From NCBI GenBank assembly GCA_000004985.1, contig GG739072.1: a DNA stretch of 8,349 bases, one strand, 5' to 3'. Positions 2-8,349 of the stretch are shown piece after piece. How positions within the stretch are numbered: the stretch's first letter is position 1; every line of letters starts with the position of its first letter. This stretch comes from Naegleria gruberi (lineage: Eukaryota). The notes below the pieces were generated by a model. It ran no database searches, was not told the DNA's origin, and was given only the letters and a program-made list of their open reading frames with translations. A program made the translations under genes and the position numbers.

Positions 2-1583
2 GGTGGAGATACCGTTTACAATGTTTGTTTTTATGCTCTTGTTACAGTTGACGACTGCGGTAAAGGTCAGGTGGTCGCCATAGCAGTAACCACTGGAGGT
101 AAACAGGAAGGTGTTAAAGATGTAGTTGACATCACAGAATCAATCTTCAAGAAAGCTGACATTCCATTTACTATTCACAATATAGGTGTGGATGCTTGTG
201 ACTCATCATTAAACGAGTTTCAAGAAAGAGGGTTTTCAGTTTCAATATGCCGTTTTCATTTCATCAAGGACATCCAATCAAATTTGAAAGACAAAGTGTC
301 CGATACTAAAGTTCGATCAGAATTGTTAGGCTTGGTCTATAGAATGCTCATAAGCACACATGATGATGACTACCATGATTGTTTAGAGGCTTTGGAAAAC
401 ACAGACAAAGAAGGTGCTTTTTACAAATACTTCCATGAGCAATGGAATAAGCATCGACATTTATTAACAAATGCAGGCCGAACAAGTAGCATGTCTTTTA
501 TGAACACGACCAATTATGTGGAAAGTGCAATTAAGAGCCTACAAAAGCAAATCAAGGGAACAACTCAGAAGAAGAAATCTCTTCATGTTTGTTTATTGTT
601 GTCGATTTTGGCAATAAGAGGACAAGTGTTAAATGTTGTTCCTACCGATTTCAATGAAAGTGAAAAAGAAGCAAATCAACGGTTGGCAAAAGCCCGAGAA
701 ATGGTGAAACTCCCTATAGTTGTTGGTGATAACAATTATGTTGTACCAAGTGAATCAGATGATGATAATTATCTTGTTGTTGTTGGTGAGCAAGGTTTTT
801 TTTGCTCATGTGATGATTTTCTACACACCTGCGGCCGACCATGCAAGCACATTTATAGGGTAATACTTTCCTTACCGGTGGCTCAAAATTATTTGGGTCG
901 CAGTGCTGTGGAATTGTTGCAGGGTGTTTGCATTTTTTTTAACATCAACATTGAATTAAACAGAACCTCCACTATTCCACACTTTATTCCAAAGGATGAA
1001 CCATTACTTCTTCCTTTGGCAATCAATAACAAATTCCCGAGAAGGAAAAAGTGCGGTAGAAAACACAAACCACCAATTCCAATTACTAATCCAACAACAA
1101 AGTATGATCATGTACATGTAGATGACAATATTGAAGTCGTTCCTTTAGATGAGAACTTGCAATGTTCTGTGGATGAACTGATTCTTTCCAAAAATGAGCT
1201 TGTAGGTATTGTGAAGAACGGAGAAGAAATTCTCTTACATATTAAAATACCAAACAGAAAAAATGTAATAGATTTAGAGATATTCAAAACCAAGCACCAA
1301 GAAACTCAAATACGGATCTTCTGGGCTTTTATTGAAGAAAGTTTGAATAGATGTGATGCTTCCTATGTAAAGAAGATAAAAACCGCTGAGAATGAAACTG
1401 TAACAGGAGTGAAATTATCTAAAGACAAGACAAAGGTGAAACTCAGATTAGGAATTGAAAAATGGATATATTATTCAGTGAAATACCGACAATTCTTGAA
1501 TAATTTTATTGGATTGGATTGTTGGAAATTAACAGAGCAAAACACTACAATTACGAACGAAAGCCAAAAACAATTAGAAAATA
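2..1583 (+). CDS. MULE/MuDR-family (Mutator-like) DDE transposase with a SWIM zinc finger and a long C-terminal extension. Partial: the 5' end is upstream of the window and the 3' end is lost in the N gap.
   Basis: The reading frame (frame 2) is open from nt 2 to the gap with no stop in 527 codons, which is very unlikely by chance at this AT content. The translation ...VYNVCFYALVTVDDCGKGQVVAIAVTTGGKQEGVKDVVDITESIFKKADIPFTIHNIGVDACDSSLNEFQERGFSVSICRFHFIKDI... matches the MULE transposase core (compare MURA ...LLTAVGRDGNNQMFPIAWAVVEVENTESWTWFL...WTFISDQQKGLLNAISVVFPNAEHRMCARHI...). TTNYVESAIKSL matches the T-N-x-x-E-S-F-N catalytic Glu region. CSCDDFLHTCGRPCKHIY is a SWIM finger. The 'M' at 71 in the ORF track is a GTG codon internal to the domain, not a true start. 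The first catalytic Asp (the DATY-type motif) must lie upstream of nt 1. Confidence 0.8.
803..850 (+). other. SWIM-type zinc finger motif (C-x-C-x6-C-x3-C-x-H) within the transposase ORF.
   Basis: The codons are tgc(803) tca tgt(809) ... tgc(830) ... tgc(842) aag cac(848), giving CSCDDFLHTCGRPCKH. This spacing is typical of SWIM fingers found C-terminal to MULE/FAR1 transposase cores. Confidence 0.7.
1021..1095 (+). other. Basic, Pro-rich patch (KFPRRKKCGRKHKPPIPITNPTTKY) that resembles a nuclear localisation signal, in the transposase C-terminal extension.
   Basis: Dense R/K cluster, RRKK..RKHK, read from the translation. The function is inferred and not demonstrated. Confidence 0.35.
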
Positions 1584-4500
1584 NNNNNNNNNNNNNNNNN
1601 NNNNNNNNNNNNNNNNNNNNNNNNNNNNNNNNNNNNNNNNNNNNNNNNNNNNNNNNNNNNNNNNNNNNNNNNNNNNNNNNNNNNNNNNNNNNNNNNNNNN
1701 NNNNNNNNNNNNNNNNNNNNNNNNNNNNNNNNNNNNNNNNNNNNNNNNNNNNNNNNNNNNNNNNNNNNNNNNNNNNNNNNNNNNNNNNNNNNNNNNNNNN
1801 NNNNNNNNNNNNNNNNNNNNNNNNNNNNNNNNNNNNNNNNNNNNNNNNNNNNNNNNNNNNNNNNNNNNNNNNNNNNNNNNNNNNNNNNNNNNNNNNNNNN
1901 NNNNNNNNNNNNNNNNNNNNNNNNNNNNNNNNNNNNNNNNNNNNNNNNNNNNNNNNNNNNNNNNNNNNNNNNNNNNNNNNNNNNNNNNNNNNNNNNNNNN
2001 NNNNNNNNNNNNNNNNNNNNNNNNNNNNNNNNNNNNNNNNNNNNNNNNNNNNNNNNNNNNNNNNNNNNNNNNNNNNNNNNNNNNNNNNNNNNNNNNNNNN
2101 NNNNNNNNNNNNNNNNNNNNNNNNNNNNNNNNNNNNNNNNNNNNNNNNNNNNNNNNNNNNNNNNNNNNNNNNNNNNNNNNNNNNNNNNNNNNNNNNNNNN
2201 NNNNNNNNNNNNNNNNNNNNNNNNNNNNNNNNNNNNNNNNNNNNNNNNNNNNNNNNNNNNNNNNNNNNNNNNNNNNNNNNNNNNNNNNNNNNNNNNNNNN
2301 NNNNNNNNNNNNNNNNNNNNNNNNNNNNNNNNNNNNNNNNNNNNNNNNNNNNNNNNNNNNNNNNNNNNNNNNNNNNNNNNNNNNNNNNNNNNNNNNNNNN
2401 NNNNNNNNNNNNNNNNNNNNNNNNNNNNNNNNNNNNNNNNNNNNNNNNNNNNNNNNNNNNNNNNNNNNNNNNNNNNNNNNNNNNNNNNNNNNNNNNNNNN
2501 NNNNNNNNNNNNNNNNNNNNNNNNNNNNNNNNNNNNNNNNNNNNNNNNNNNNNNNNNNNNNNNNNNNNNNNNNNNNNNNNNNNNNNNNNNNNNNNNNNNN
2601 NNNNNNNNNNNNNNNNNNNNNNNNNNNNNNNNNNNNNNNNNNNNNNNNNNNNNNNNNNNNNNNNNNNNNNNNNNNNNNNNNNNNNNNNNNNNNNNNNNNN
2701 NNNNNNNNNNNNNNNNNNNNNNNNNNNNNNNNNNNNNNNNNNNNNNNNNNNNNNNNNNNNNNNNNNNNNNNNNNNNNNNNNNNNNNNNNNNNNNNNNNNN
2801 NNNNNNNNNNNNNNNNNNNNNNNNNNNNNNNNNNNNNNNNNNNNNNNNNNNNNNNNNNNNNNNNNNNNNNNNNNNNNNNNNNNNNNNNNNNNNNNNNNNN
2901 NNNNNNNNNNNNNNNNNNNNNNNNNNNNNNNNNNNNNNNNNNNNNNNNNNNNNNNNNNNNNNNNNNNNNNNNNNNNNNNNNNNNNNNNNNNNNNNNNNNN
3001 NNNNNNNNNNNNNNNNNNNNNNNNNNNNNNNNNNNNNNNNNNNNNNNNNNNNNNNNNNNNNNNNNNNNNNNNNNNNNNNNNNNNNNNNNNNNNNNNNNNN
3101 NNNNNNNNNNNNNNNNNNNNNNNNNNNNNNNNNNNNNNNNNNNNNNNNNNNNNNNNNNNNNNNNNNNNNNNNNNNNNNNNNNNNNNNNNNNNNNNNNNNN
3201 NNNNNNNNNNNNNNNNNNNNNNNNNNNNNNNNNNNNNNNNNNNNNNNNNNNNNNNNNNNNNNNNNNNNNNNNNNNNNNNNNNNNNNNNNNNNNNNNNNNN
3301 NNNNNNNNNNNNNNNNNNNNNNNNNNNNNNNNNNNNNNNNNNNNNNNNNNNNNNNNNNNNNNNNNNNNNNNNNNNNNNNNNNNNNNNNNNNNNNNNNNNN
3401 NNNNNNNNNNNNNNNNNNNNNNNNNNNNNNNNNNNNNNNNNNNNNNNNNNNNNNNNNNNNNNNNNNNNNNNNNNNNNNNNNNNNNNNNNNNNNNNNNNNN
3501 NNNNNNNNNNNNNNNNNNNNNNNNNNNNNNNNNNNNNNNNNNNNNNNNNNNNNNNNNNNNNNNNNNNNNNNNNNNNNNNNNNNNNNNNNNNNNNNNNNNN
3601 NNNNNNNNNNNNNNNNNNNNNNNNNNNNNNNNNNNNNNNNNNNNNNNNNNNNNNNNNNNNNNNNNNNNNNNNNNNNNNNNNNNNNNNNNNNNNNNNNNNN
3701 NNNNNNNNNNNNNNNNNNNNNNNNNNNNNNNNNNNNNNNNNNNNNNNNNNNNNNNNNNNNNNNNNNNNNNNNNNNNNNNNNNNNNNNNNNNNNNNNNNNN
3801 NNNNNNNNNNNNNNNNNNNNNNNNNNNNNNNNNNNNNNNNNNNNNNNNNNNNNNNNNNNNNNNNNNNNNNNNNNNNNNNNNNNNNNNNNNNNNNNNNNNN
3901 NNNNNNNNNNNNNNNNNNNNNNNNNNNNNNNNNNNNNNNNNNNNNNNNNNNNNNNNNNNNNNNNNNNNNNNNNNNNNNNNNNNNNNNNNNNNNNNNNNNN
4001 NNNNNNNNNNNNNNNNNNNNNNNNNNNNNNNNNNNNNNNNNNNNNNNNNNNNNNNNNNNNNNNNNNNNNNNNNNNNNNNNNNNNNNNNNNNNNNNNNNNN
4101 NNNNNNNNNNNNNNNNNNNNNNNNNNNNNNNNNNNNNNNNNNNNNNNNNNNNNNNNNNNNNNNNNNNNNNNNNNNNNNNNNNNNNNNNNNNNNNNNNNNN
4201 NNNNNNNNNNNNNNNNNNNNNNNNNNNNNNNNNNNNNNNNNNNNNNNNNNNNNNNNNNNNNNNNNNNNNNNNNNNNNNNNNNNNNNNNNNNNNNNNNNNN
4301 NNNNNNNNNNNNNNNNNNNNNNNNNNNNNNNNNNNNNNNNNNNNNNNNNNNNNNNNNNNNNNNNNNNNNNNNNNNNNNNNNNNNNNNNNNNNNNNNNNNN
4401 NNNNNNNNNNNNNNNNNNNNNNNNNNNNNNNNNNNNNNNNNNNNNNNNNNNNNNNNNNNNNNNNNNNNNNNNNNNNNNNNNNNNNNNNNNNNNNNNNNNN

Positions 4501-6781
4501 NNNNNNNNNNNNNNNNNNNNNNNNNNNNNNNNNNNNNNNNNNNNNNNNNNNNNNNNNNNNNNNNNNNNNNNNNNNNNNNNNNNNNNNNNNNNNNNNNNNN
4601 NNNNNNNNNNNNNNNNNNNNNNNNNNNNNNNNNNNNNNNNNNNNNNNNNNNNNNNNNNNNNNNNNNNNNNNNNNNNNNNNNNNNNNNNNNNNNNNNNNNN
4701 NNNNNNNNNNNNNNNNNNNNNNNNNNNNNNNNNNNNNNNNNNNNNNNNNNNNNNNNNNNNNNNNNNNNNNNNNNNNNNNNNNNNNNNNNNNNNNNNNNNN
4801 NNNNNNNNNNNNNNNNNNNNNNNNNNNNNNNNNNNNNNNNNNNNNNNNNNNNNNNNNNNNNNNNNNNNNNNNNNNNNNNNNNNNNNNNNNNNNNNNNNNN
4901 NNNNNNNNNNNNNNNNNNNNNNNNNNNNNNNNNNNNNNNNNNNNNNNNNNNNNNNNNNNNNNNNNNNNNNNNNNNNNNNNNNNNNNNNNNNNNNNNNNNN
5001 NNNNNNNNNNNNNNNNNNNNNNNNNNNNNNNNNNNNNNNNNNNNNNNNNNNNNNNNNNNNNNNNNNNNNNNNNNNNNNNNNNNNNNNNNNNNNNNNNNNN
5101 NNNNNNNNNNNNNNNNNNNNNNNNNNNNNNNNNNNNNNNNNNNNNNNNNNNNNNNNNNNNNNNNNNNNNNNNNNNNNNNNNNNNNNNNNNNNNNNNNNNN
5201 NNNNNNNNNNNNNNNNNNNNNNNNNNNNNNNNNNNNNNNNNNNNNNNNNNNNNNNNNNNNNNNNNNNNNNNNNNNNNNNNNNNNNNNNNNNNNNNNNNNN
5301 NNNNNNNNNNNNNNNNNNNNNNNNNNNNNNNNNNNNNNNNNNNNNNNNNNNNNNNNNNNNNNNNNNNNNNNNNNNNNNNNNNNNNNNNNNNNNNNNNNNN
5401 NNNNNNNNNNNNNNNNNNNNNNNNNNNNNNNNNNNNNNNNNNNNNNNNNNNNNNNNNNNNNNNNNNNNNNNNNNNNNNNNNNNNNNNNNNNNNNNNNNNN
5501 NNNNNNNNNNNNNNNNNNNNNNNNNNNNNNNNNNNNNNNNNNNNNNNNNNNNNNNNNNNNNNNNNNNNNNNNNNNNNNNNNNNNNNNNNNNNNNNNNNNN
5601 NNNNNNNNNNNNNNNNNNNNNNNNNNNNNNNNNNNNNNNNNNNNNNNNNNNNNNNNNNNNNNNNNNNNNNNNNNNNNNNNNNNNNNNNNNNNNNNNNNNN
5701 NNNNNNNNNNNNNNNNNNNNNNNNNNNNNNNNNNNNNNNNNNNNNNNNNNNNNNNNNNNNNNNNNNNNNNNNNNNNNNNNNNNNNNNNNNNNNNNNNNNN
5801 NNNNNNNNNNNNNNNNNNNNNNNNNNNNNNNNNNNNNNNNNNNNNNNNNNNNNNNNNNNNNNNNNNNNNNNNNNNNNNNNNNNNNNNNNNNNNNNNNNNN
5901 NNNNNNNNNNNNNNNNNNNNNNNNNNNNNNNNNNNNNNNNNNNNNNNNNNNNNNNNNNNNNNNNNNNNNNNNNNNNNNNNNNNNNNNNNNNNNNNNNNNN
6001 NNNNNNNNNNNNNNNNNNNNNNNNNNNNNNNNNNNNNNNNNNNNNNNNNNNNNNNNNNNNNNNNNNNNNNNNNNNNNNNNNNNNNNNNNNNNNNNNNNNN
6101 NNNNNNNNNNNNNNNNNNNNNNNNNNNNNNNNNNNNNNNNNNNNNNNNNNNNNNNNNNNNNNNNNNNNNNNNNNNNNNNNNNNNNNNNNNNNNNNNNNNN
6201 NNNNNNNNNNNNNNNNNNNNNNNNNNNNNNNNNNNNNNNNNNNNNNNNNNNNNNNNNNNNNNNNNNNNNNNNNNNNNNNNNNNNNNNNNNNNNNNNNNNN
6301 NNNNNNNNNNNNNNNNNNNNNNNNNNNNNNNNNNNNNNNNNNNNNNNNNNNNNNNNNNNNNNNNNNNNNNNNNNNNNNNNNNNNNNNNNNNNNNNNNNNN
6401 NNNNNNNNNNNNNNNNNNNNNNNNNNNNNNNNNNNNNNNNNNNNNNNNNNNNNNNNNNNNNNNNNNNNNNNNNNNNNNNNNNNNNNNNNNNNNNNNNNNN
6501 NNNNNNNNNNNNNNNNNNNNNNNNNNNNNNNNNNNNNNNNNNNNNNNNNNNNNNNNNNNNNNNNNNNNNNNNNNNNNNNNNNNNNNNNNNNNNNNNNNNN
6601 NNNNNNNNNNNNNNNNNNNNNNNNNNNNNNNNNNNNNNNNNNNNNNNNNNNNNNNNNNNNNNNNNNNNNNNNNNNNNNNNNNNNNNNNNNNNNNNNNNNN
6701 NNNNNNNNNNNNNNNNNNNNNNNNNNNNNNNNNNNNNNNNNNNNNNNNNNNNNNNNNNNNNNNNNNNNNNNNNNNNNNNNN
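1584..6781. other. Assembly or scaffold gap: 5,198 consecutive N. This is not sequence.
   Basis: Uninterrupted n from 1584 to 6781. The non-round length suggests an estimated gap size from paired reads. Both flanking ORFs run into it. Confidence 0.99.
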
Positions 6782-7318
6782 TGAATATTCCAAAGAATTC
6801 ACAACTTCTGGTGCTTGATATAAATAATCTACTGATCGACTGGAATTGAACTTTGAATTGTTAACACCTAGCTTAACAGCTCTTGAGAAATTACCAATTT
6901 TGTATCGTCCTTCATCCTTAAAGTAGAATATATTCTCTGGTCTCAAATCACAATGGACAAAATCTAAATCATGTAAACGAGAAAGACTTTCGGCAACATG
7001 TAAGCAAACCTTCAAATCATTTGTTTCGTCTATTTCTTTCACTAAATATTCTGCAAGTGAATATTCTGCTTTCGGAATAATTACATAATTTTTCAAGAAA
7101 TCAATATTTCCATTGTCTAATATTGGTACTAAATAATTATCAGTTGCATCTTGTTGGGTATTTTTGATTTTTAAATAGGTTTCGTATTCTTCCCCAATTA
7201 AAATTTTCATCAGAAATTTCTTGGAAGGATCATCCTTCAAGCAAACATTAACGAAGCGTGATTGTTTAAAATTTTCATCGAGTGCTGAATATTTGACGGG
7301 CCACGATTGCTTGTACAT
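6782..7318 (-). CDS. Eukaryotic-type protein kinase-like protein, paralogue of the gene at 7367..8338. Only the N-terminal 179 aa are present and the 3' end is lost in the gap. Atypical motifs: no glycine-rich loop, HCD catalytic loop, and NFS in place of DFG.
   Basis: The ATG is at 7318..7316 (cat on the + strand). An in-frame stop sits 2 codons upstream on the minus strand (TAA, complement of 7322..7324). Translation: MYKQSWPVKYSALDENFKQSRFVNVCLKDDPSKKFLMKILIGEEYETYLKI...LHDLDFVHCDLRPENIFYFKDEGRYKIGNFSRAVKL...YLYQAPEVV. This contains the HxDLKPEN-type catalytic loop (HCDLRPEN), the APE motif and a candidate beta3 Lys (FLMKIL). The ORF is continuous up to the first N. Confidence 0.78.
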
Positions 7319-7366
7319 TTTTTATAATATTCTAATTCGAAACCTTTCAGAATTCAAAAAACAAAA
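7319..7366. promoter_or_regulatory. 48-bp divergent intergenic region that must hold the core promoters or 5' UTRs for both head-to-head kinase genes. It is AT-rich, with a TATAAAA-like motif immediately 5' of the minus-strand ATG.
   Basis: The sequence is ttttataatattctaattcgaaacctttcagaattcaaaaaacaaaa. The reverse complement reads ...gaattagaatattataaaaATG for the minus gene. The plus gene has an A-rich leader, ...ttcaaaaaacaaaaATG. It contains the short palindromes ttcgaa and gaattc and an imperfect inverted repeat, aattcgaaa/tttcagaatt. Confidence 0.4.
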
Positions 7367-8338
7367 ATGAGTGAAGGCCAGTGGAGGTGTGTGATTAAAG
7401 CACATCCTCCCCATGATGTTCTGGAAATTTGTTCTCTACTAAACAGCTTTGTTATTGAAGTTGATAGAATATTTATTTCTAATTGCCAGATTTTTGCTTT
7501 TGCTGGCGTGTGGGAATTAACATTCCCAAGCCGAAACGAGGAAGGAAACGATAGATTTATTGAATTTAATGAATCTACATTCAACAAATTGCGAAGTTAT
7601 TGTTTAAATATTGAAAGACTATTTCTTTCGGGAACCAAAGCTATTAGTACCGAATCTCTGTATCTAAAAATTGTTCTATTATTGGAGGAGGAAGATAATC
7701 CACTGGAGAGGTACAAGTATATTTACAACAAAGTGAAGGAAGCCGAAATATCTTGTGTGCAACACTATTATGAATATTTAGAACACCAATATTTTGTAAT
7801 TATTAGCGAAAAAGCAGAGTGTGATTTAAAAACCTATTTGGAAACGAATGAGTTGAGTTTGGAAGTTAGGATAAATCTCTGTGTACAATATGCTGAGCTA
7901 GTACTAAAATTACATGAGCAGAATATTGTTCATTGCGATTTGAAACCAAGCAATGTATTGGTACTCAAGGATGGCAGTTTAAGGCTAACTGATTTTGAAG
8001 GGTCTTCTTACTTGAAAGATAACAAGAGCTTTTTCAATTCCCATTGTAAATCAATTGGTTACTTTGATGAGACAGTTAGTGTTGAGCAGTTTCAAGACCT
8101 TTTAAATCGTGATTTATTTGCTTTGGGTATTAGTTTTATTGAAATATTTATGTGTAATCCGAATAATCATATTACAACAAAGCACGAATTCATCAAGAGA
8201 AAAGAGTTTGCCAAATATCCATATTCAACAATTTATCANACAGTGGAATCTTTTCTTAAAAACGATCAGTCTCGTAGTATTAAAGATTTAATACATAAAT
8301 TACAGGAAGTTAGCATTGAGTTGAGTTACATGATTTAA
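7367..8338 (+). CDS. Protein kinase-like protein, 323 aa and complete. It has a roughly 130-aa unrecognised N-terminal region and a kinase-fold C-terminal region with HCDLKPSN, DFE in place of DFG, and subdomain IX DLFALG. It has no glycine-rich loop.
   Basis: The ATG is at 7367, with an in-frame upstream stop at 7325..7327 (taa), and the ORF ends at TAA 8336..8338. The translation contains ...LHEQNIVHCDLKPSNVLVLKDGSLRLTDFEGSSYL...DLFALGISFIEIF...RSIKDLI, which corresponds to kinase subdomains VIb, VII, IX and XI. There is one ambiguous base (n at 8239), giving one X residue. The motif order parallels the minus-strand gene: AECDLKTYL...HCDLKP versus AEYSLAEYL...HCDLRP. Confidence 0.8.
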   Translation: MSEGQWRCVIKAHPPHDVLEICSLLNSFVIEVDRIFISNCQIFAFAGVWELTFPSRNEEGNDRFIEFNESTFNKLRSYCLNIERLFLSGTKAISTESLYLKIVLLLEEEDNPLERYKYIYNKVKEAEISCVQHYYEYLEHQYFVIISEKAECDLKTYLETNELSLEVRINLCVQYAELVLKLHEQNIVHCDLKPSNVLVLKDGSLRLTDFEGSSYLKDNKSFFNSHCKSIGYFDETVSVEQFQDLLNRDLFALGISFIEIFMCNPNNHITTKHEFIKRKEFAKYPYSTIYXTVESFLKNDQSRSIKDLIHKLQEVSIELSYMI

Positions 8339-8349
8339 TTATTTCCAGA

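What the first reader, a model, noticed from the sequence alone, without database searches (positions are those of the whole stretch)
2..1583. MULE transposase with apparently intact catalytic residues, a SWIM finger and an unusually long uncharacterised C-terminal extension
The visible DDE residues look intact: the second Asp in HNIGVDACD, and the Glu in NYVESAIK together with the CRFH C-x-x-H motif. The SWIM finger is complete. The ORF then stays open for another roughly 240 codons (nt 865..1583), including an NLS-like RRKKCGRKHK patch and a Lys/Glu-rich region (KIPNRKNVIDLEIFKTKHQETQIRIFWAFIEESLNRCDAS...). An uninterrupted frame of this length in AT-rich DNA argues that the whole region is under coding constraint. 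This means either a recently active autonomous element or a domesticated MULE-derived gene (FAR1/FHY3- or MUSTANG-like).
Basis: partly seen in the sequence, partly recalled or inferred. Interest (0 to 1): 0.55.

Follow-up and report, generated by a model that had tools for sequence, protein, structure and literature searches.

The report
Mutator-like transposase gene fragment in Naegleria
This is most of the transposase gene of an ordinary Mutator-like (MULE) jumping gene in the amoeba Naegleria gruberi, cut off by the contig start and an assembly gap; its long tail is normal for its relatives, so the finding is real but not surprising.

Summary
Frame +2 of nt 2-1583 is open for 527 codons, against a maximum of 186 in 1000 shuffles. 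It is cut by the contig start and by a 5198-N gap.

The window is a Naegleria gruberi scaffold, and NCBI calls the product 'predicted protein, partial'. The protein itself scores below Pfam's MULE threshold (14 vs 27.6 bits). Membership in the Mutator superfamily rests on other evidence:
- a 735-aa homolog (E=1.6e-40) reaches the MULE threshold;
- a family profile and the AlphaFold model both hit the ISCth4 (IS256/Mutator) transposase;
- all motifs align: D3, D64, CRFH, E174 and a SWIM finger.

That homolog sits inside a 3.1-kb element with about 180-bp terminal inverted repeats (TIRs) and a perfect 10-bp target-site duplication (TSD). A Willaertia relative is flanked by 117-nt inverted repeats and has decayed.

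The tail is not unusual, since relatives carry about 200 aa after SWIM. Residues 292-364, including the basic patch, are conserved. The rest is only weakly conserved.

A second N. gruberi contig, identical over 144 aa, extends the ORF 76 aa past the gap edge.

The best reading is a transposon-borne transposase, not a domesticated gene. This copy's TIRs, TSD and copy number could not be tested. Interest is low.

The parts
2..1583 (+). Open reading frame (527 codons, frame +2). It encodes roughly the C-terminal two-thirds of a MULE transposase and is truncated by the contig start and by the N gap.
   Evidence: 0 stops against 22-50 in the other frames. Shuffle maximum is 186 codons. Identical to the NCBI N. 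gruberi 'predicted protein, partial' P0001 over aa 17-478.
2..706 (+). DDE catalytic core: an RNase H-like fold with an all-helical insertion between D2 and E.
8..10 (+). Codon of the first catalytic Asp (D3, in GGDTVY).
   Evidence: Aligned with the D of GYDSVY (P0003), SVDSVY (P0006) and IVFIDAIH of ISCth4.
191..193 (+). Codon of the second catalytic Asp (D64, in GVDACD).
   Evidence: The column is conserved in P0003, P0004 and P0006 and aligns with ILCADAL of ISCth4. The neighbouring D67 is not conserved; it is His in P0003.
248..259 (+). CxxH motif (CRFH, aa 83-86), a hallmark of Mutator/IS256 transposases 19 residues after D2.
   Evidence: IC(K/R)FH is conserved in all close homologs and aligns with CIVH of ISCth4.
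521..523 (+). Codon of the catalytic Glu (E174, in NTTNYVES).
   Evidence: The NTNNxxE(S/A) motif is conserved across the family and aligns with YTTNTIES of ISCth4.
773..874 (+). SWIM zinc finger (Pfam match aa 258-291; CxCx10CxH at aa 268-283, nt 803-850).
   Evidence: Pfam PF04434 at 23.5 bits, above the 19.6 cut-off. GRPCKHI is conserved in relatives.
875..1093 (+). Family-conserved post-SWIM block (aa 292-364): helices, the IN.ELN..S.IPHFIP motif (IPHFIP at nt 974-991) and the basic patch RRKKCGRKHK (nt 1040-1069), a probable nuclear localisation signal.
   Evidence: The tail-only phmmer search hits P0004, P0003, P0008 and P0010 at E=4e-10 to 6e-9 within this block. See also the alignments. 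pLDDT is about 90 up to aa 335. The NLS role is inferred.
1094..1583 (+). Far C-terminal region (aa 365-527): a disordered linker followed by a possible small alpha/beta module (aa ~390-511). It continues for 76 more residues in P0002, beyond the gap edge.
   Evidence: Pfam finds nothing here. In pairwise BLASTP the only colinear match is to P0003, at E=0.21; the P0010 segments are not colinear (E>=9). A profile built from the P0003 and P0010 tails hits this region at E=5e-5 in a 37-sequence set. pLDDT is 44-82 in the full model and 39 when modelled alone.
1584..6781 (.). Assembly gap (5198 N). It hides the last ~76 codons, the stop codon, the 3' TIR and whatever else lies there.
   Evidence: Gap coordinates. 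P0002 (XP_002668046.1, on a 1523-bp contig) is identical over window aa 384-527 and continues with NSQDVDD...RRKIPPKPAGPIK.

Best explanation
Nt 2-1583 is the 3' two-thirds of the transposase gene of a Mutator-like (MULE) class II DNA transposon in Naegleria gruberi. It is an intact, probably young copy.

Shown:
- The product has the Mutator/IS256-type DDE core (D3, D64, CRFH, E174), followed by a SWIM zinc finger and a family-conserved block containing a basic patch.
- Its closest full-length relative is the single ORF of a 3.1-kb element. That element has ~180-bp terminal inverted repeats built from 19-20-bp subrepeats, and a 10-bp target-site duplication.

Inferred mechanism, from what is established for MuDR and Muta1:
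- The missing N-terminal ~260 aa bind the subterminal repeats.
- The basic patch imports the protein into the nucleus.
- The DDE core cuts the element out and pastes it elsewhere, duplicating 9-11 bp of target.
- The far C-terminal ~240 aa is a fast-evolving, lineage-specific tail with a weakly conserved module. It may serve multimerisation or regulation.

The full protein would be about 860 aa: roughly 260 missing residues, 527 in the window and 76 from the second contig.
For: - Open frame of 527 codons, far beyond chance.
- An exhaustive HMMER search of 1.84e9 representatives gave 36 hits. The best non-self hit is P0003 (735 aa, E=1.6e-40), colinear over query aa 5-361.
- P0003 reaches the Pfam MULE gathering score. 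Of 36 family members, 16 hit MULE (best 2e-21) and 3 hit Transposase_mut.
- The family profile hits the ISCth4 'Mutator family transposase' 6xg8 at E=6.5e-4, with the D, D, CxxH and E columns aligned.
- The L001 element has TIRs at 6144-6326 and 9038-9286 (153 nt, 91% complementary), tandem 19-20-bp units, and a perfect GTTTTCAATG repeat abutting both ends.
- The Willaertia magna relative is flanked by a 117-nt inverted repeat pair and has two in-frame stops, so it behaves as a decaying transposon. Other relatives are frameshifted and sit next to hAT or pogo transposase genes.
- The named close relatives are all heteroloboseans and are patchy. No Naegleria ortholog other than the two N. gruberi fragments was found.
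- A second small N. gruberi contig carries a 100% identical 144-aa stretch. The window breaks at the contig end and at a gap inside the element, as repeats often do in assemblies.
- A MuDR-superfamily element has already been reported in N. gruberi (PMC3164196, Figure S2 legend).
Against: - For this copy neither TIRs, nor a TSD, nor copy number could be examined. The 5' end lies before the contig start and the 3' end lies in the gap. No tool gave access to the N. gruberi assembly.
- The window protein alone does not reach Pfam's MULE threshold.
- Only two annotated N. gruberi proteins belong to the family, and they may represent one locus.
- N. gruberi is poor in transposons: 5.1% repeats (PMC6125883) and 0.28% TEs (bioRxiv 10.64898/2026.06.24.734286).
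- An intact frame is also what a domesticated gene would show.
- Homology of the far tail to the relatives' tails is weak.
Confidence: 0.75

Rival explanations
1. A domesticated MULE-derived host gene, analogous to FAR1/FHY3, MUSTANG or animal ZSWIM proteins. The transposase would have lost its TIRs and now serve as a DNA-binding or regulatory protein. The long tail would then be a functional (for example activation) region kept open by selection.
For: - The reading frame is long and fully intact, including a tail with no known domain.
- Only one or two copies appear in the annotated proteome of a TE-poor genome (PMC6125883).
- GC3 is like that of the neighbouring host kinase genes.
- Distant family members hit ZSWIM1-3 RNaseH-like models, and one is named ZSWIM9-like.
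Against: - No ortholog turned up in other Naegleria species in an exhaustive search. The next-best hit is only 33% identical and comes from a metagenome.
- The closest full-length relative is inside a TIR/TSD-bounded element.
- The relative in the sister genus Willaertia is a decayed copy flanked by inverted repeats, not a conserved gene.
- The complete catalytic triad and CxxH motif are retained.
- The tail evolves fast rather than being conserved.
Confidence: 0.1
2. An immobile young relic: a transposase gene from a recent insertion that can no longer move, for example because it lacks one TIR or has a truncated 5' end. It would be intact only because too little time has passed to accumulate stops.
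For: - Relatives in Willaertia, Acrasis and the metagenomes are mostly frameshifted or stop-containing, so decay is the usual fate.
- Neither the element ends nor the N-terminal DNA-binding part can be seen for this copy.
Against: - 603 consecutive open codons (527 plus 76) and perfect aa identity between the two N. gruberi fragments show no decay at all.
- This rival differs from the main explanation only in present activity, which sequence alone cannot decide.
Confidence: 0.15

Closest known systems
Eukaryotic Mutator-like elements (MuDR/MURA, Jittery, Hop, Muta1; Pfam PF10551 MULE plus PF04434 SWIM)
   Same: The DDE core carries the CxxH motif after D2 and the NTNNxxE(S/A) motif around the catalytic Glu, with a SWIM finger downstream. 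Relatives have a single-ORF element with long TIRs and a 10-bp TSD. The estimated protein size of about 860 aa is close to MURA; that comparison rests on my own knowledge.
   Different: The sequence is very divergent: its own PF10551 score is sub-threshold. It has a clade-specific post-SWIM IPHFIP block and a fast-evolving tail. The host lineage, Heterolobosea, is not among the six groups in the 2019 MULE survey (PMC6446971).
IS256-family / ISCth4 transposase (PDB 6xg8, 6xgw, 6xgx), the prokaryotic branch of the Mutator superfamily
   Same: It is the only solved structure hit by the family profile (E=6.5e-4) and the top Foldseek hit. The catalytic D, D, CxxH and E columns align. NCBIfam IS256 gives a weak hit.
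   Different: Identity is only 13-19%. ISCth4 has no SWIM finger and no long C-terminal tail, is bacterial, and uses copy-out/paste-in chemistry (that last point is from my own knowledge of the ISCth4 work).
Metagenomic element on JGI contig Ga0394780_002286 (L001; protein P0003, 735 aa)
   Same: It is the closest full-length homolog: 33% identity, E=1.6e-40, colinear through the core, SWIM finger, IPHFIP block and basic patch. Its tail is weakly similar.
   Different: Its post-SWIM tail is 203 aa, against 320 aa here. Its host organism is unknown. Its TIRs and TSD are visible, whereas those of the window copy are not.
FAR1/FHY3, MUSTANG and ZSWIM: domesticated MULE transposases
   Same: The architecture matches: a MULE core, a SWIM finger and a C-terminal region of ~200 aa or more. 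Distant family members hit ZSWIM1-3 models.
   Different: There is no evidence of conserved orthology, and the relatives are mobile or decaying elements. An N-terminal FAR1/WRKY-type domain cannot be checked because the N-terminus is missing.
MuDRF element reported from N. gruberi (Repbase; PMC3164196, Figure S2 legend)
   Same: Same superfamily and same host species. It is a single-protein element with a MuDR-type TSD.
   Different: MuDRF is defined by an N-terminal GCM domain and is described as a distant MuDR branch. The N-termini of P0003 and of the Willaertia copy show no GCM hit, and the window lacks its N-terminus. Whether the two are the same is untested.

Membership tests
Mutator superfamily (MULE/IS256) DDE transposase | Sequence or profile homology of the catalytic domain to MULE/IS256 models | tested here: met
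   The protein's own PF10551 score is sub-threshold (14 bits vs 27.6, E=0.071). The link holds through other evidence. Homolog P0003 (E=1.6e-40 to the window) reaches the MULE gathering score. Of 36 family members, 16 hit MULE (best 2e-21) and 3 hit Transposase_mut. The family profile hits ISCth4 6xg8 at E=6.5e-4. NCBIfam IS256 gives E=3.6e-4.
Mutator superfamily (MULE/IS256) DDE transposase | D-D-E triad with a C/DxxH motif shortly after D2 and the N..E(S/A) motif at the Glu | tested here: met
   D3, D64, C83-x-x-H86 and E174 are all present. D1 to D2 is 61 residues and D2 to E is 110. All fall in conserved columns and align to ISCth4.
Mutator superfamily (MULE/IS256) DDE transposase | RNase H-like catalytic fold with a helical insertion domain | tested here: met
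Eukaryotic MULE element | SWIM (or CCHC) zinc finger C-terminal to the core | tested here: met
   PF04434 scores 23.5 bits, above the 19.6 cut-off, at aa 258-291. The CxCx10CxH motif is present.
Eukaryotic MULE element | Terminal inverted repeats, often long, flanking the transposase gene | not testable with these tools
   The 5' end lies before the contig start and the 3' end lies in the N gap. Relatives do have inverted repeats: L001 has 153-nt arms at 91% complementarity with 19-20-bp subrepeats, and L002 has 117-nt arms at 86%.
Eukaryotic MULE element | Target-site duplication of 8-11 bp | not testable with these tools
   It cannot be seen for this copy. The L001 relative has a perfect 10-bp GTTTTCAATG at both ends. 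No clear TSD was found in L002.
Eukaryotic MULE element | Multiple copies or insertion polymorphism in the host genome | tested here: inconclusive
   A second N. gruberi contig (1523 bp; P0002) is 100% identical over 144 aa. It could be another copy or an unplaced piece of the same locus. The N. gruberi assembly is not in any searchable collection.
Domesticated MULE-derived genes (FAR1/FHY3, MUSTANG, ZSWIM) | Conserved orthologs across related species, with no mobile relatives | tested here: not met
   No ortholog from another Naegleria species appeared among the 36 hits in 1.84e9 representatives or in the 90%-cluster search. The closest relatives are a TIR/TSD-bounded element and decayed copies. 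Caveat: unannotated orthologs would be missed.
Domesticated MULE-derived genes (FAR1/FHY3, MUSTANG, ZSWIM) | Absence of TIRs and TSD at the locus | not testable with these tools
   The flanks are not in the window.
MuDRF (Repbase branch of MuDR reported in N. gruberi) | N-terminal GCM DNA-binding domain | not testable with these tools
   The N-terminus is missing from the window. The N-termini of homologs P0003 and the Willaertia copy give no GCM hit at E<=10. The MuDRF sequences are held only as an image.

The most novel reading that the evidence does not exclude
This may be an intact, currently mobile autonomous MULE in the otherwise TE-poor N. gruberi genome. It would belong to a MULE clade, so far seen only in heteroloboseans and metagenomes, whose transposases carry a previously undescribed post-SWIM module: the IN.ELN..S.IPHFIP block, a basic patch, and a weakly conserved beta-alpha-beta C-terminal domain. 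If so, it would be the first candidate native cut-and-paste vector for Naegleria genetics, and the tail would be a new accessory domain of Mutator transposases.
Probability: 0.2. Interest if true: 0.4.

Novelty: new member of a known kind. Interest (0 to 1): 0.17.

Why it matters
The practical value is mostly in annotation. A 'predicted protein, partial' of N. gruberi, which has no precomputed Pfam domain, can now be labelled a Mutator-like transposase. A small divergent MULE clade can also be defined in Heterolobosea (Naegleria, Willaertia, Acrasis, Pharyngomonas), a lineage absent from the main eukaryote-wide MULE survey. If a complete active copy exists, it could be developed into a transposon tool for Naegleria. 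None of this changes what is known about how Mutator elements work.

Tried and rejected
- Word-indexed protein searches returned almost only the query's own records. They missed homologs that the exhaustive HMMER search found, so they are not used as strong negative evidence.
- Pfam on the tail alone found nothing. BLASTP of the far tail against P0003 and P0010 was not significant.
- DNA for the N. gruberi contigs of P0001 and P0002 could not be fetched.
- Metagenome scans did not help. The window protein gave no relatives. Two alignments were too divergent to search with. A narrower alignment gave 5 loci that match only the SWIM finger, and these were not pursued.
- A viral-contig scan found nothing, which speaks against a giant-virus origin.
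- No TIRs were found around the relatives in L008, L009 and L010. No clear TSD was found in the Willaertia locus.
- dN/dS was not computable: the only close sequence is identical at the protein level and has no DNA available, and all the others are about 33% identical.
- No tRNAs and no notable tandem repeats occur in the window.
- A test for a GCM domain in the homologs' N-termini, to link them to the published MuDRF, was negative. The published alignment is only an image.

Full report
**What the window is.** The 8349-bp window is a complete small scaffold. It holds readable sequence at 1-1583 and 6782-8349, separated by 5198 N, plus one N at 8239. The only database protein matching at 100% identity is a 462-aa 'predicted protein, partial [Naegleria gruberi]' whose longest contig is 8349 bp. 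The organism is therefore the heterolobosean amoeba N. gruberi.

**Checking the observation.**
- Frame +2 of nt 2-1583 contains no stop in 527 codons. The other five frames contain 22-50 stops.
- In 1000 shuffles of nt 1-1583, the longest open frame averaged 83 codons and never exceeded 186.
- In the post-SWIM part alone (nt 875-1583) the frame stays open for 236 codons, against 6-21 stops in each of the other five frames.
- All quoted peptides are present at the stated places.
- The ORF is cut at both ends, by the contig start and by the gap.

**Is it a Mutator-like transposase?** Taken alone, the protein passes Pfam SWIM (23.5 bits, cut-off 19.6) but not Pfam MULE (14 bits, E=0.071, cut-off 27.6). 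Four other lines of evidence restore the classification:
1. An exhaustive HMMER search of 1.84e9 representative proteins gave 36 hits. The best non-self hit is P0003, a 735-aa protein (E=1.6e-40, 33% identity) colinear over query aa 5-361. P0003 reaches the MULE gathering score.
2. Across the 36 members, 16 hit MULE (best 2e-21), 13 hit ZSWIM1-3 RNaseH-like and 3 hit the bacterial Transposase_mut family.
3. A profile of the family hits a single PDB sequence, the ISCth4 'Mutator family transposase' 6xg8 (E=6.5e-4). In that alignment the family's D, D, CxxH and NTNNxxE columns fall on IVFIDAIH, ILCADAL, CIVH and YTTNTIES. NCBIfam's IS256 model gives a weak supporting hit.

**Catalytic residues.**
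- D3 (nt 8-10).
- D64 (nt 191-193). D67 in the same peptide is not the catalytic residue, because it is His in P0003.
- CRFH at aa 83-86.
- E174 (nt 521-523).
- The SWIM finger is CxCx10CxH at aa 268-283.

**The C-terminal extension.** It falls into three parts.
- *Residues 292-364 are conserved family sequence.* This stretch holds helices, the motif IN.ELN..S.IPHFIP and a basic patch. The patch reads RRKKCGRKHK here, RKKRKR in P0003, RRNKKRKR in P0004 and RGRKKNK in P0010. Tail-only phmmer searches hit these relatives at E=4e-10 to 6e-9. Conservation of the patch fits a nuclear localisation signal, but that role is an inference.
- *Residues 351-387 are predicted disordered*.
- *Residues ~390-511 are predicted, at moderate confidence (pLDDT 44-82), to form a three-strand / helix / three-strand / helices module*.
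  - Pfam finds nothing there.
  - In pairwise BLASTP the only colinear match is to P0003, at E=0.21. The P0010 segments are not colinear (E>=9).
  - In tail-only phmmer searches the matches to P0010 (E=0.004) and P0003 (E=0.4) are colinear.
  - A profile made from the P0003 and P0010 tails picks out the Naegleria tail as its only significant hit, at E=5e-5 in a 37-sequence set.
  - The module is therefore probably shared by the closest relatives but evolves fast. Modelled alone it gave pLDDT 39, so its fold is unknown.

Length alone is not unusual. Most relatives that have a SWIM finger carry 170-230 residues after it, and two carry 331-345.

**Closing the gap.** A second N. gruberi protein, P0002 (XP_002668046.1), is 220 aa, partial, and sits on a 1523-bp contig.
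- It is identical to window aa 384-527 and continues for 76 residues: an acidic stretch with a repeated LEIVGSE, ending ...RQRVNRRKIPPKPAGPIK.
- The post-SWIM tail is then 320 aa. Adding the ~260 N-terminal residues seen in P0003, the full protein would be about 860 aa. This figure is an inference.
- P0002 also reads straight through the point where the NCBI model of the window protein stops (KDKTK|GTGAAA), so there is no intron at that point.

**Transposon or domesticated gene?** The readable sequence cannot show this copy's ends, so the answer rests on relatives and distribution.
- *P0003's gene (L001 6711-8918)* lies between inverted arms at 6144-6326 and 9038-9286. The best pair is 153 nt at 91% complementarity. 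The arms are built from about nine tandem 19-20-bp units with the core TCTGAATTTGC. The 10-mer GTTTTCAATG directly abuts both ends. This is a textbook autonomous MULE of about 3.1 kb, and it sits next to a pogo/Tc5-type transposase gene.
- *The Willaertia magna relative (L002)* is flanked by a 117-nt, 86% inverted repeat pair. Its reading frame carries two in-frame stops.
- *Other relatives* are split by frameshifts or sit beside hAT fragments.
- *Distribution.* The named close relatives are all heteroloboseans: Willaertia, Acrasis kona and Pharyngomonas kirbyi. No ortholog from N. fowleri or N. lovaniensis appears.
- *What this pattern means.* It combines patchy distribution, mobile and decaying relatives, an intact catalytic triad, and an assembly that breaks inside the element with a redundant identical fragment. 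That is what a transposon shows, not a FAR1/FHY3- or MUSTANG-like host gene.
N. gruberi is TE-poor (PMC6125883; bioRxiv 10.64898/2026.06.24.734286).
- I put 0.75 on 'transposase gene of an intact, probably young MULE copy'. Within the remainder I put 0.15 on an intact but immobile relic and 0.10 on domestication.

**Comparison with what is known.** Mutator-like elements are well described across eukaryotes. The 2019 survey lists animals, fungi, amoebozoans, stramenopiles, parabasalids and plants, but not Heterolobosea (PMC6446971). [quoted passage not shown] MuDRF is a distant MuDR branch with a GCM domain and a 9-bp TSD. The superfamily's presence in this species is therefore not new. Whether this family is that element is untested: the window lacks its N-terminus, the homologs' N-termini show no GCM hit, and the published alignment is held only as an image.

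**Verdict.** The finding is real and correctly classified, apart from the word 'unusually'. It amounts to a divergent new member of a known kind of mobile element. Interest is low, at about 0.17. The upside is that an active native transposon in Naegleria, or a new accessory domain in the tail, would be modestly useful.

Noticed in passing
window 6782-7318 (-) and 7367-8338 (+): Two divergently transcribed protein-kinase genes start only 48 bp apart, with ATGs at 7318 and 7367. Both hit Pfam Pkinase (E=1.5e-11 and 2.2e-18), and they are paralogs at 36% identity. The minus-strand gene runs into the gap and reads GNFS where the DFG motif is expected. The plus-strand gene reads DFEG. One or both may therefore be atypical kinases or pseudokinases.
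   Followed up: partly
window 1433-1441: The NCBI gene model for the window protein (P0001) ends at ...KDKTK, just before GTGAAA. The predictor apparently treated this as a splice donor leading into the gap. The model on the second contig (P0002) reads through the identical sequence (KDKTKVKLRLG...). The two annotations of the same sequence disagree, and the first is probably clipped.
   Followed up: partly
P0002 residues 145-220 (sequence beyond window nt 1583): The part of the tail hidden by the gap is acidic and low in complexity. It has an internal repeat (LEIVGSE twice) and ends in a second basic motif, RQRVNRRKIPPKPAGPIK. The last ten residues are the only part of the tail-only model with pLDDT above 70.
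   Followed up: no
L001 4235-5833 and L009 1295-2902: The metagenomic contigs carrying the closest relatives are transposon-rich. A pogo/Tc5-type DDE_1 transposase gene lies directly upstream of the MULE in L001. hAT transposase fragments lie upstream of the MULE relative in L009.
   Followed up: no
L001 ~7000-7080 and L002 ~9180-9260 (N-terminal regions of P0003 and of the Willaertia copy): Both N-termini share a Cys/His-rich stretch: YQCQCQCHPNCKKKVKIIHKH in P0003 and YLYKCKCNENCKIYYKIIHQY in Willaertia. No Pfam model matches it. It is plausibly the zinc-binding DNA-recognition domain of this MULE clade. The corresponding part of the Naegleria protein lies before the contig start.
   Followed up: partly
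window 8239: A single ambiguous base (N) lies inside the plus-strand kinase ORF and gives an X in its translation.
   Followed up: no
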